DNA of 64,000 nt from Piscinibacter terrae (GCF_003852895.1 NZ_QUSW01000007.1:231411-295410), one strand, 5' to 3'; positions 27,770-28,318 are shown, counted from the first letter of the stretch. Notes: generated by a model from the letters alone, not told the origin. Numbers and translations: made by a program.

Positions 27770-28318
27770 ATGAAGAAGACCGTTTCCTTGTTCGCTCGCA
27801 ACTACGAAGGCGACCGCTTGGTCCGCAACGAAGTGGTTCCTGGCGCAGAATGGGTGATGGCCGGCGAAGGCGTGGCCACCCGCAAGTTCGACGGAACCTG
27901 CTGCTTGATGCGTGGTGGCGTCTTGTACAAGCGCTACGACGCCAAGGCGGGCAAGGTTCCGCCCCCTGGCTTTGAACCCGCACAGGAACCCGATGCCTTG
28001 ACCGGGCACTGGCCAGGTTGGTTGCCTGTTGCCGACGGCCCTGACGATGCTCGTCATCGTGAGGCGATGACCCAGGCGTTGGCAGACGGTACTTACGAGT
28101 TGTGCGGACCCAAGGTTCAAGGCAACCCCGAGAAATTTGCCCGGCATATCCTGGTCCGTCACGGCAAGGATGTCTTGGCCGACTGCCCACGCAGCTTCGA
28201 TGCATTGCGTGTGTACTTGTGCGATCGCGACATCGAAGGTGTTGTGTGGCATCACGAAGATGGCCGCATGGTCAAGATCAAGGGCAAGGACTTTGGCCTG
28301 AAGCGCGGCAGTGCCTGA
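27770..28318 (+). CDS. 182-aa protein with covalent nucleotidyltransferase (ATP-dependent RNA/DNA ligase) motifs I, III, IV, V; candidate minimal RNA ligase embedded in the tRNA array
   Basis: RBS AAAGGGGAA upstream of ATG 27770; motif I KFDGT (res 39-43), motif III-like DGTYEL (106-111), motif IV EGVVW (156-160), motif V VKIKGK (168-173). Confidence 0.45.
   Translation: MKKTVSLFARNYEGDRLVRNEVVPGAEWVMAGEGVATRKFDGTCCLMRGGVLYKRYDAKAGKVPPPGFEPAQEPDALTGHWPGWLPVADGPDDARHREAMTQALADGTYELCGPKVQGNPEKFARHILVRHGKDVLADCPRSFDALRVYLCDRDIEGVVWHHEDGRMVKIKGKDFGLKRGSA

What the first reader, a model, noticed from the sequence alone, without database searches (positions are those of the whole stretch)
27770..28318. 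Minimal 182-aa ORF with ligase/capping-enzyme nucleotidyltransferase motifs (KFDGT, DGTYEL, EGVVW, VKIKGK) inserted inside the tRNA array
Motif order and spacing (I at 39-43, III-like at 106-111, IV at 156-160, V at 168-173) fit the covalent nucleotidyltransferase (ATP-dependent ligase) core. The protein is far smaller than known RNA/DNA ligases and has no OB or other accessory domain. Its position between tRNA-Gln and tRNA-Val, next to an HNH nuclease and upstream of RtcR/RtcB/RtcA, suggests a dedicated tRNA-repair (5'-P/3'-OH sealing) ligase. It would complement RtcB's 3'-P/5'-OH chemistry, analogous to the phage T4 Pnkp/Rnl1 counter-defence logic.
Basis: partly seen in the sequence, partly recalled or inferred. 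Interest (0 to 1): 0.7.

Follow-up and report, generated by a model that had tools for sequence, protein, structure and literature searches.

The report
Small RNA ligase inside tRNA array
The 182-residue gene is real and encodes a bacterial member of the already characterised RLIG1 (formerly DUF5565) RNA ligase family, carried as cargo in a horizontally spread tRNA gene array next to an RNA-repair operon, so it is a tidy example of known biology, not a new enzyme.

Summary
An ATG ORF at 27770-28318 (182 aa) lies between tRNA-Gln and tRNA-Val, with motifs at the stated residues.

Published work shows this family seals 5'-P/3'-OH RNA ends, and that several of the bacterial and viral homologs tested seal tRNA anticodon-loop breaks. 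Enrichment of tRNA genes near bacterial DUF5565 genes is also published.

The gene is variable cargo of an "L-array" unit: divergent small ORF, then the array, then an HNH gene. Related arrays on Burkholderiales megaplasmids carry AlkB, an HD protein or an unrelated PF09414 RNA ligase instead. Most relatives of the ligase are phage-borne, without tRNA arrays and without an end-healing partner.

The adjacent RtcR / Band7-Rsr-Y RNA-RtcB-RlaP-RtcA operon is real.

A tRNA-nick-sealing role is likely but untested.

The parts
27770..28318 (+). RLIG1-family (PF17720) stand-alone RNA ligase gene, 182 aa. Motif residues: I K39/D41 (nt 27884-27898), Ia R55 (27932-27934), III E110 (28097-28099), IIIa H131 (28160-28162), IV E156 (28235-28237), V K169/K171 (28274-28282).
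   Evidence: ORF and motifs; Pfam, PHROG, PDB sequence match; identical NCBI protein; model and fold match; dN/dS 0.12; catalytic residues conserved in 146-150 of 151 sequences.
27757..27763 (+). Shine-Dalgarno-like AAGGGGA, 7 nt before the ATG.
   Evidence: Conserved in ortholog L024, while the spacer upstream carries a 5-nt indel.
25633..28408 (+). L-type tRNA gene array: 18 tRNAs for 18 amino acids (no Ala, no Thr), all on the + strand. The ligase gene lies between the last two.
   Evidence: Partial gene-order synteny and 76-87% tRNA identity with the array on the Methylibium petroleiphilum PM1 megaplasmid.
27674..27748 (+). tRNA-Gln(ttg), ends 21 nt before the ligase ATG.
28334..28408 (+). 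tRNA-Val(tac), starts 15 nt after the ligase stop codon.
28460..29041 (+). Array-associated HNH endonuclease, 193 aa.
   Evidence: Homologs of 66-71% identity occur on several Burkholderiales megaplasmids. In the three inspected (Methylibium, Polaromonas, Variovorax RA8; 69-71% identity) the HNH gene sits directly 3' of a 19-27-tRNA array. A 48%-identical homolog sits next to the ligase in L036.
29057..29097 (.). Strong hairpin between the convergent HNH and rtcR genes; likely the bidirectional terminator that ends the array-ligase-HNH unit.
   Evidence: -37.3 kcal/mol, z -5.3. Conserved in L024.
24714..25082 (-). Conserved 122-aa ORF transcribed divergently from the array; candidate array regulator.
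   Evidence: 64% and 44% identical to the ORFs at the same position upstream of the Methylibium and Polaromonas arrays. No Pfam hit.
29100..30716 (-). RtcR (RtcR N-terminal domain plus sigma-54 AAA+ activator).
   Evidence: PF06956 4.8e-83, PF00158 1.1e-48.
30851..30866 (+). Sigma-54-type promoter TGGCACgctgcCTGCA for the repair operon.
   Evidence: Read, located. Pattern match only.
31054..31121 (+). tRNA-like element in the operon leader.
   Evidence: Rfam tRNA, 34.8 bits. The ortholog in L024 is called tRNA-Phe(aaa) by ARAGORN.
31431..37832 (+). RNA-repair operon: Band7/SPFH 31431-32570, Rsr/Ro60 32597-34192, Y-RNA-like elements 34345-34689, RtcB 34711-35934, RlaP 35966-36793, RtcA 36765-37832.

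Best explanation
The ORF encodes a stand-alone ATP-dependent RNA ligase of the RLIG1 family (Pfam PF17720, formerly DUF5565, the human C12orf29 family). It consists of the nucleotidyltransferase domain only.

Inferred mechanism, from the family's published biochemistry:
- Lys39 attacks the alpha-phosphate of ATP to form ligase-(lysyl-N)-AMP.
- The AMP is passed to an RNA 5'-phosphate, giving AppRNA.
- A 3'-OH then attacks, sealing the break.
- R55, E110, H131, E156 and K169 position the nucleotide and Mg2+.

The gene is variable cargo of a horizontally spread long tRNA gene array (L-array). The conserved frame of that unit is a small divergent ORF, then the array, then an HNH endonuclease gene. 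The ligase is most likely transcribed with the tRNAs: 21-nt and 15-nt spacers, no predicted internal promoter or terminator, and a strong hairpin only after the HNH gene. Its mRNA would then be released by the tRNA 5'/3' processing enzymes.

Its most likely job is to reseal tRNAs (or other structured RNAs) nicked to 5'-P/3'-OH ends. RtcB in the adjacent RtcR-controlled Rsr/Y RNA/RtcB/RlaP/RtcA operon handles 3'-P or 2',3'-cyclic-P with 5'-OH ends.

Shown here: gene reality, family membership, fold, conservation of the catalytic residues, and locus architecture. Inferred: catalytic activity of this particular protein, co-transcription, tRNA as the in vivo substrate, and any cooperation with the Rtc operon.
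For: Identity:
- The identical protein is named "RNA ligase 1 family protein [Piscinibacter terrae]".
- PF17720 scores 42.2 bits against a 25-bit cutoff. PHROG 14301 "RNA ligase" scores 7e-78 over 1-186/186.
- phmmer against the PDB finds 9c6l at 1.5e-12. K39 aligns with the residue mutated in the K73M structure 9c6m.
- K39, D41, G42, R55, E110, H131, E156 and K169 are each conserved in 146-150 of 151 aligned sequences (the query plus 150 diverse relatives).
- dN/dS is 0.12.

Chemistry:
[quoted passage not shown] Several of the bacterial and viral homologs tested ligated tRNA halves cut in the anticodon loop. Ysp K73, R89, E174, H195, E240 and K253 are needed for activity.

Link to tRNA:
- The same Ser-Lys-Gln-[ligase]-Val-HNH-rtcR order is kept in metagenomic ortholog L024.
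- An independent 24-tRNA array, L036, is followed by a 48%-identical HNH and a 71%-identical ligase.
- Homologous HNH-terminated arrays carry other RNA-repair cargo in intra-array slots: AlkB and an HD protein in Methylibium, and an unrelated PF09414 RNA ligase in Variovorax RA8.
- PMC10364804 reports tRNA genes over-represented near bacterial DUF5565 genes.
- In Anabaena, the L-array, its HNH, rtcB and a slipin form one stress regulon (PMC8421152, PMC10272220). This parallels the physical linkage seen here.

Expression:
- No promoter-like or terminator-like site lies between 27160 and 29040. There is a strong hairpin after the HNH gene.
Against: - No activity was measured for this protein. 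The accessions and lengths of the bacterial and phage homologs assayed in PMC11494293 could not be recovered, so activity of the ~180-aa form is likely but not documented here.
- Of 188 loci encoding relatives, only 2 (one of them an ortholog) have a tRNA array. Only 17 have any tRNA within the fetched flanks.
- 254 viral contigs and 25 phage genomes carry the gene without arrays.
- The closely related Methylibium array has Gln and Val adjacent with no ligase between them.
- The ligase has the lowest GC3 in the region (0.705 against 0.79-0.93). It may therefore be a recent insertion that is merely tolerated.
- Classical anticodon nucleases leave 5'-OH and 2',3'-cyclic-P ends, which this chemistry cannot seal without a kinase/phosphatase. 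None was identified among the annotated genes of the locus, and no gene family recurs next to relatives.
- Adjacency to rtcR is seen only in this lineage (the window and L024).
Confidence: 0.75

Rival explanations
1. It is a real RLIG1-type ligase, but its position is incidental. On this view it is a phage-derived accessory gene ("moron") that landed in an intergenic spacer of the array. It acts on whatever broken RNA is available (rRNA, mRNA, phage RNA) or has little function in this host.
For: - Most relatives are in phage or prophage contexts without arrays.
- There is no conserved neighbour: the top family is an integrase, in 9 of 187 loci.
- The ligase has the lowest GC3 in the region.
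- The Methylibium array lacks it at the Gln-Val junction.
- Human RLIG1 has also been linked to 28S rRNA integrity (abstract of PMC13244148).
Against: - The gene is kept under purifying selection at the same site in a diverged ortholog (dS 0.61, dN/dS 0.12).
- There is a second, independent array-HNH-ligase linkage in L036.
- A non-orthologous RNA ligase occupies an intra-array slot in Variovorax RA8.
- tRNA enrichment near the family is published.
Confidence: 0.25
2. The HNH nuclease and the ligase form a cut-and-rejoin pair. This could be a mobility/homing cassette or a toxin/antidote-like pair, with the ligase resealing the 5'-P/3'-OH ends that HNH nucleases leave.
For: The HNH and ligase genes are adjacent in L036 and are separated only by tRNA-Val in the window. 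HNH (beta-beta-alpha-Me) nucleases leave 5'-P/3'-OH ends (general knowledge).
Against: - The same HNH family ends arrays that have no RLIG1 ligase (Methylibium and Polaromonas).
- The ligase occurs in hundreds of loci with no recurrent HNH neighbour.
- RLIG1 is reported as RNA-specific, whereas homing HNH enzymes cut DNA (PMC11494293; PMC8421152 discussion).
Confidence: 0.06
3. It is a nucleotidyltransferase that stops at RNA 5'-adenylylation (producing App-RNA "caps") or AMPylates another target, and does not act as a sealing ligase.
For: Step 2 of the ligase pathway yields AppRNA. A 2026 paper on Ap2N-capped RNAs mentions RLIG1 repeatedly (PMC13598233, listed; not read). The protein lacks any extra RNA-binding domain.
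Against: All six ligase motif residues are retained, including the motif IV and V residues E156 and K169 whose Yasminevirus counterparts are required for adenylation and ligation. Tested homologs complete ligation.
Confidence: 0.04
4. It is a minimal DNA ligase or an mRNA-capping-type guanylyltransferase.
Confidence: 0.03

Closest known systems
RLIG1 / C12orf29 family (Pfam PF17720, formerly DUF5565); structural reference Yasminevirus RLIG1 (PDB 9c6l, 9c6m); PHROG 14301
   Different: At 182 aa it is about 95 residues shorter than the Yasminevirus protein (277 aa) and about 140 shorter than the human one. It lacks their N-terminal extension and two internal insertions (alignment blocks). It is encoded inside a tRNA array. 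This particular protein has not been assayed.
Phage T4 Rnl1 / Pnkp tRNA heal-and-seal system
   Different: There is no C-terminal tRNA-binding domain. No kinase/phosphatase partner was identified among the annotated genes of the locus, and no gene family recurs next to 187 relatives. The setting here is chromosomal and is not a lytic phage.
[quoted passage not shown]
   Same: 18 co-oriented, tightly spaced tRNA genes. An HNH gene abuts the array and a small divergent ORF sits upstream. Protein genes are embedded in the array. The array is linked to rtcB and a slipin/Band7 gene. Homologous arrays occur on megaplasmids (PMC8421152, PMC10272220, PMC5966550).
   Different: An embedded RLIG1-type ligase was not mentioned in the array papers I could search. 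Here the array directly abuts a complete RtcR-controlled Rsr/Y RNA/RtcB/RlaP/RtcA operon, whereas in Anabaena the link to rtcB is co-regulation at a distance.
RtcR-regulated Rsr-Y RNA-RtcB-RtcA RNA repair operon (Salmonella type)
   Same: The neighbouring operon has RtcR, a sigma-54-type promoter, Ro60/Rsr, a YrlA-type Y RNA (81 bits), RtcB and RtcA, plus Band7 and RlaP.
   Different: The ligase is not part of that operon. It lies on the other side of rtcR, in a separate convergent transcription unit, and uses the opposite end chemistry.
PF09414 RNA_ligase protein embedded in the Variovorax sp. RA8 plasmid tRNA array
   Same: An RNA ligase gene also occupies an intra-array slot, though a different one (between tRNA-Gly and tRNA-Cys), of a homologous HNH-terminated L-array.
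   Different: It belongs to a different ligase family and is larger (353 aa). It is an analogous replacement and not an ortholog.

Membership tests
RLIG1 family (PF17720) | Profile HMM match above the curated threshold | tested here: met
   PF17720 scores 42.2 bits against a 25-bit cutoff, although only residues 102-178 are aligned. The full-length PHROG 14301 match is 7e-78. All 120 listed homologs carry PF17720.
RLIG1 family (PF17720) | Nucleotidyltransferase motifs I, Ia, III, IIIa, IV and V, with the catalytic lysine | tested here: met
   K39 aligns with K73 (K73M in 9c6m). K39, D41, R55, E110, H131, E156 and K169 are each conserved in 146-150 of 151 aligned sequences.
RLIG1 family (PF17720) | Minimal ATP-grasp-like ligase fold as in Yasminevirus RLIG1 | tested here: met
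RLIG1 family (PF17720) | Autoadenylylation on the motif I Lys and ATP-dependent joining of 5'-P/3'-OH RNA ends | not testable with these tools
   Shown for human, Yasminevirus and several other homologs among the bacterial and viral proteins tested (PMC11494293). Not shown for this protein.
T4 Pnkp/Rnl1-type heal-and-seal tRNA repair system | Ligase paired with a 5'-kinase/3'-phosphatase end-healing enzyme | tested here: not met
   No such gene was identified among the annotated ORFs of the locus, 24.7-37.8 kb. No neighbour family of any kind recurs in more than 9 of 187 loci encoding relatives, and the two largest clusters look like an integrase and a DNA methyltransferase (read from their sequences).
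T4 Pnkp/Rnl1-type heal-and-seal tRNA repair system | Ligase carries a dedicated tRNA-binding C-terminal domain (Rnl1) | tested here: not met
   The whole 182-aa chain maps onto the nucleotidyltransferase core (173 residues aligned to 9c6l). PMC11494293 notes that RLIG1 lacks the Rnl1 RNA-binding domain.
L-type tRNA gene array | Long run of co-oriented, closely spaced tRNA genes, non-periodic | tested here: met
   18 tRNAs in 2.8 kb, all on the + strand, covering 18 different amino acids.
L-type tRNA gene array | Associated HNH endonuclease and embedded or flanking RNA-related protein genes | tested here: met
   The HNH gene is at 28460-29041. Its homologs end the arrays in Methylibium, Polaromonas, Variovorax RA8 and L036.
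L-type tRNA gene array | Horizontally acquired and supernumerary to the housekeeping tRNA set | tested here: inconclusive
   Homologous arrays lie on megaplasmids, and the window is otherwise chromosomal (EF-G, NAD synthase). The genome-wide tRNA count cannot be obtained from the window.
RtcR-controlled Rtc/Rsr RNA repair operon (neighbour, not the ORF itself) | RtcR with sigma-54 AAA+ domain, a sigma-54 promoter, RtcB and RtcA; optionally Rsr and a Y RNA | tested here: met
   The promoter TGGCAC-N5-CTGCA at 30851-30866 is a pattern match only.

The most novel reading that the evidence does not exclude
The L-arrays of Burkholderiales may be modular "tRNA supply-and-repair" cassettes. The conserved frame is a divergent regulator-like ORF, the array, and a 3' HNH gene. 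The intra-array slots hold interchangeable RNA-repair cargo: an RLIG1-type ligase here, a PF09414 ligase in Variovorax, and AlkB plus an HD protein in Methylibium.

On this reading the ligase mRNA is a "tRNA-punctuated" messenger, released by RNase P and the 3' tRNA processing enzymes. In Piscinibacter the cassette would be functionally coupled to the adjacent damage-sensing RtcR / Rsr-Y RNA-RtcB operon. Both break chemistries (5'-P/3'-OH and 3'-P or cyclic-P/5'-OH) plus replacement tRNAs would then be delivered from a single locus of about 13 kb.
Probability: 0.3. Interest if true: 0.55.

Novelty: new member of a known kind. Interest (0 to 1): 0.3.

Why it matters
If the protein is active, it shows that about 180 residues suffice for a complete polynucleotide ligase. 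That is useful as a minimal scaffold and for understanding how a domain-less ligase recognises broken tRNA. The locus is also a compact natural experiment. Replacement tRNAs, a 5'-P/3'-OH ligase, an HNH nuclease and a complete RtcR-Rsr-Y RNA-RtcB-RlaP-RtcA system lie side by side, which could help show what L-arrays are for. None of the parts is new, however, so the value is as a well-defined test case and not as a discovery.

Tried and rejected
- The exact-sequence contig lookup for the window protein returned nothing.
- NCBIfam has no model that hits the protein.
- The species-representative genome scan gave 17 loci. None had an array and at most one had a nearby tRNA.
- I clustered all ORFs within 3.5 kb of the ligase in 187 loci to look for a conserved partner such as Pnkp, a 2H phosphoesterase or RlaP. 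None emerged. The largest clusters were an integrase (9 loci) and a DNA methyltransferase (7 loci).
- Mycobacteriophage Collard and Ralstonia jumbo phage RP12 carry the gene away from any tRNA cluster.
- Plasmid copies in Vibrio and Deinococcus have no tRNAs nearby. The 5.8-kb CDS-free gap beside the Vibrio gene is not an array.
- The three viral-contig HNH relatives begin at the contig edge, so their upstream sequence could not be checked.
- I tried to recover which bacterial and phage homologs ("R. bacterium", "C. phage") were assayed in PMC11494293, and their lengths, from the text and SI. No accessions are held. "C. phage" may be Cellulophaga phage phi10:1, whose 181-aa homolog is the only C-genus phage hit, but that is a guess.
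- The long antisense ORFs 27599-28255 and 27621-28205 were rejected as coding. Shifted-frame substitution patterns are non-coding-like, and such ORFs are expected at 60-65% GC.
- The upstream TTG start at 27743 was rejected. It overlaps tRNA-Gln, and an indel in L024 breaks that frame.

Full report
**1. The observation**

The ORF is exactly as described. It runs from ATG at 27770 to a stop ending at 28318 on the + strand, 182 codons, with AAGGGGA 7 nt upstream. KFDGT, DGTYEL, EGVVW and VKIKGK are at residues 39-43, 106-111, 156-160 and 168-173.

ARAGORN finds 18 tRNA genes on the + strand between 25633 and 28408. Rfam confirms each of them at 44-68 bits. The ORF begins 21 nt after tRNA-Gln(ttg) and ends 15 nt before tRNA-Val(tac).

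A 193-aa HNH endonuclease gene follows at 28460-29041 (HNH_5 1.9e-14).

On the other strand lies rtcR at 29100-30716 (RtcR domain 4.8e-83 plus a sigma-54 AAA+ domain).

Divergent from rtcR is an operon that encodes:
- a Band7/SPFH protein
- Rsr/Ro60
- three Y-RNA-like elements, one of them YrlA at 81 bits
- RtcB
- RlaP
- RtcA

.

**2. It is a real gene**

A metagenomic contig, L024, carries an 87%-identical protein in the same order: tRNA-Ser, Lys, Gln, ligase, tRNA-Val, HNH, rtcR.
- Between the two copies dS is 0.61 and dN/dS is 0.12. The two shifted frames give ratios above 2.
- The tRNAs are almost invariant and the spacers diverge.
- A 5-nt indel just upstream of the RBS rules out the alternative TTG start at 27743.

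**3. What it is**

- The identical sequence is in NCBI as "RNA ligase 1 family protein [Piscinibacter terrae]".
- It matches Pfam PF17720 (RLIG1, formerly DUF5565) above threshold. It matches PHROG 14301 "RNA ligase" end to end at 7e-78.
- Against PDB sequences, the only significant matches are the Yasminevirus RLIG1 structures 9c6l and 9c6m. K39 aligns with the lysine replaced in the K73M mutant.
- An AlphaFold2 model built on 58 homologs has mean pLDDT 94.3.
- Foldseek returns only Yasminevirus RLIG1 chains at E<=1e-3, with TM 0.83.
- The fold is therefore the covalent nucleotidyltransferase fold.
- In 150 representatives of 50%-identity clusters plus the query (151 sequences), K39, D41, G42, R55, E110, H131, E156 and K169 are each kept in 146-150. 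These correspond to motifs I, Ia, III, IIIa, IV and V, which Hu et al. showed by mutagenesis to be required in the Yasminevirus enzyme (PMC11494293).

**4. How the family works**

This is known from the literature and was not tested here. C12orf29/RLIG1 was identified as a 5'-3' RNA ligase in 2023 (PMC9931718). Hu et al. 2024 (PMC11494293) reported that:
- the enzyme autoadenylates on the motif I lysine;
- it joins only 5'-phosphate/3'-hydroxyl RNA ends;
- it binds tRNA;
- it seals tRNA cut in the anticodon loop;
[quoted passage not shown] I could not recover which bacterial and phage proteins were assayed, or their lengths.

**5. Size**

At 182 aa the protein is much smaller than any ligase with a solved structure: 277 aa for the Yasminevirus enzyme, and target lengths of about 208-610 for the other ligase chains. 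But this is the normal size of the bacterial/phage branch.
- There are 6134 homologs at E<=1e-3, nearly all 180-200 aa.
- There are 1828 clusters at 50% identity, with a median length of 200 among the best 150.
- 25 phage genomes carry it, mostly annotated "RNA ligase".
- 254 IMG/VR contigs carry it.

So "smaller than known ligases" is true of characterised enzymes, but the gene is not an orphan.

**6. Is the tRNA-array position meaningful?**

I collected 188 loci that encode relatives and scanned them for tRNAs. Only 17 have any tRNA within the fetched flanks (up to 6-10 kb where the contig allowed). Only two have an array.

One of the two is the ortholog L024. The other, L036, is independent:
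- a 24-tRNA array in a different gene order;
- immediately followed by an HNH that is 48% identical to the window's;
- then a ligase that is 71% identical, though with a 16-residue internal deletion.

No protein family recurs next to the ligase across loci. The top two are an integrase in 9 of 187 loci and a methyltransferase in 7. Nothing resembling a polynucleotide kinase/phosphatase appears. Close relatives sit in phage early regions or in ordinary chromosomal contexts.

The ligase has the lowest third-position GC of 15 genes examined in the window, 0.705 against 0.79-0.93. This is consistent with a phage-derived, fairly recent arrival.

**7. The array unit**

The HNH turned out to be the better marker.
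- Homologs of 66-71% identity occur on several Burkholderiales megaplasmids.
- In the three I inspected (Methylibium petroleiphilum PM1, Polaromonas and Variovorax RA8; 69-71% identity), the HNH gene sits directly 3' of a co-oriented array of 19-27 tRNAs.
- The Methylibium array shares partial gene order and 76-87% tRNA identity with the window's.
- A small ORF transcribed divergently from the first tRNA is conserved: 64% identity to Methylibium's and 44% to Polaromonas's.

These arrays carry different protein genes in their internal gaps:
- Methylibium has an HD-domain protein and an AlkB-type dioxygenase.
- Variovorax RA8 has a 353-aa PF09414 RNA ligase, a different ligase family.
- In Methylibium, tRNA-Gln and tRNA-Val are 6 nt apart, exactly where the window has the ligase.

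The ligase is therefore variable cargo of a conserved array unit, and the cargo is repeatedly RNA-repair enzymes.

**8. This architecture is already in the literature**

[quoted passage not shown] Their neighbourhoods are enriched in RNA-processing and translation genes, including rtcB (PMC8421152).
- In Anabaena one repressor, TrcR, controls the array, the HNH, rtcB and a slipin (PMC10272220). That is the same set of functions found physically linked here.
- In Mycobacterium arrays, an XRE regulator and an HNH are present in about 87% of one array group (PMC5966550).
- The ProFaNA paper reported tRNA genes significantly over-represented near bacterial DUF5565 genes, in more than 20% of neighbourhoods, and predicted a tRNA-related function (PMC10364804).

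I found no paper in the held library that describes an RLIG1-type ligase inside an L-array or next to an Rtc operon. That is a gap in description, not a new principle.

**9. Most likely mechanism**

- Shown: an intact, selected gene for an RLIG1-fold protein with a complete active site, inside an L-array.
- Inferred, step 1: it is transcribed with the tRNAs. There are short spacers and no promoter-like or terminator-like site between 27160 and 29040. A -37 kcal/mol hairpin follows the HNH gene. The mRNA would be freed by tRNA end-processing.
- Inferred, step 2: it seals 5'-P/3'-OH nicks in tRNA by the three-step lysyl-AMP pathway.
- Inferred, step 3: this complements RtcB, which joins 3'-P or 2',3'-cyclic-P ends to 5'-OH ends.
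- Weak point: classical anticodon nucleases leave ends that this ligase cannot use without healing, and no healing enzyme is linked. The natural substrates would then be nicks made by metal-dependent nucleases, or ends healed by unlinked host enzymes.
- The adjacency to rtcR is seen only in this lineage and may be coincidental.

**10. Verdict**

The finding is a new member of a known kind, in a neat but explicable context. Interest is modest at 0.3. What remains interesting is the idea that L-arrays are modular tRNA supply-and-repair cassettes, and the practical appeal of a 182-residue ligase.

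Noticed in passing
window 30851-31121: A sigma-54-type promoter, TGGCACgctgcCTGCA (30851-30866, + strand), lies divergent from rtcR. Its roughly 550-nt leader before the Band7 ORF contains tRNA-like elements: a T-arm-like stretch at 31023-31043 and an Rfam tRNA hit of 34.8 bits at 31054-31121. The orthologous element in L024 is called tRNA-Phe(aaa) by ARAGORN.
   Followed up: partly
window 34345-34689: Three Y-RNA-like elements lie between rsr and rtcB: YrlB-like (35 bits, below gathering), YrlA-like (37.7 bits, below gathering) and YrlA (81.1 bits, above gathering).
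   Followed up: no
window 24714-25082 (-): A 122-aa ORF is transcribed divergently from the first tRNA. It has no Pfam hit. It is 64% identical to the ORF in the same position upstream of the Methylibium PM1 plasmid array and 44% identical to the Polaromonas one. It is a candidate array regulator, comparable to the XRE regulators of Mycobacterium arrays.
   Followed up: partly
window 26894-27314: A 420-bp gap in the array, between tRNA-His and tRNA-Leu, holds three things. First, what looks like a frameshifted SEC-C-type motif: [12 protein letters not shown] in one frame (27073-27117) and GRFKSCC in another (27119-27142). Second, an RBS-like GGAACTCCATGAA (27066-27079) that resembles the ligase's GGAACTCCCATGAA. 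Third, a tRNA T-arm remnant, GAAGGTTCGATTCCTTC (27274-27290). This is probably decayed cargo plus a decayed tRNA.
   Followed up: partly
window 18377-24652 (-): A MoxR-vWA-beta-propeller ternary conflict system (bpX6 953 aa, an unassigned 625-aa ORF, bpMoxR 373 aa) lies immediately upstream of the array unit. The region therefore looks like a conflict/repair island between housekeeping genes (EF-G at 5401-7581, NAD synthase at 11005-12705, malic enzyme at 40811-43303).
   Followed up: no
window 25453-25486 (+): A 14-bp-stem hairpin followed by a T run lies about 150 nt upstream of the first tRNA and downstream of the only sigma-70-like match (25136-25164). It could be the terminator of an upstream small transcript or a leader attenuator for the array.
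   Followed up: no
L192 6212-7564; L194 6659-7720: Homologous HNH-terminated tRNA arrays on megaplasmids embed other RNA-repair genes: an HD-domain protein and an AlkB-type dioxygenase in Methylibium PM1, and a PF09414 RNA ligase (353 aa) in Variovorax sp. RA8.
   Followed up: partly
L036 4521-5024: The array-linked ligase homolog in this metagenomic contig has a 16-residue deletion (equivalent to residues 94-109). It removes a helix and the start of the motif III strand but keeps the motif III glutamate. It may be inactive, or it may be an assembly artefact.
   Followed up: no
window 27770-28318 compared with 14 other genes in the window: The ligase has the lowest third-codon-position GC of the 15 genes examined in the window (0.705, against 0.79-0.93 for the others). 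This suggests a more recent foreign, probably phage, origin than the HNH gene and the Rtc genes.
   Followed up: yes
window 16494-17624 (-): A second Band7/SPFH-domain protein is encoded about 14 kb upstream of the one in the Rtc operon.
   Followed up: no
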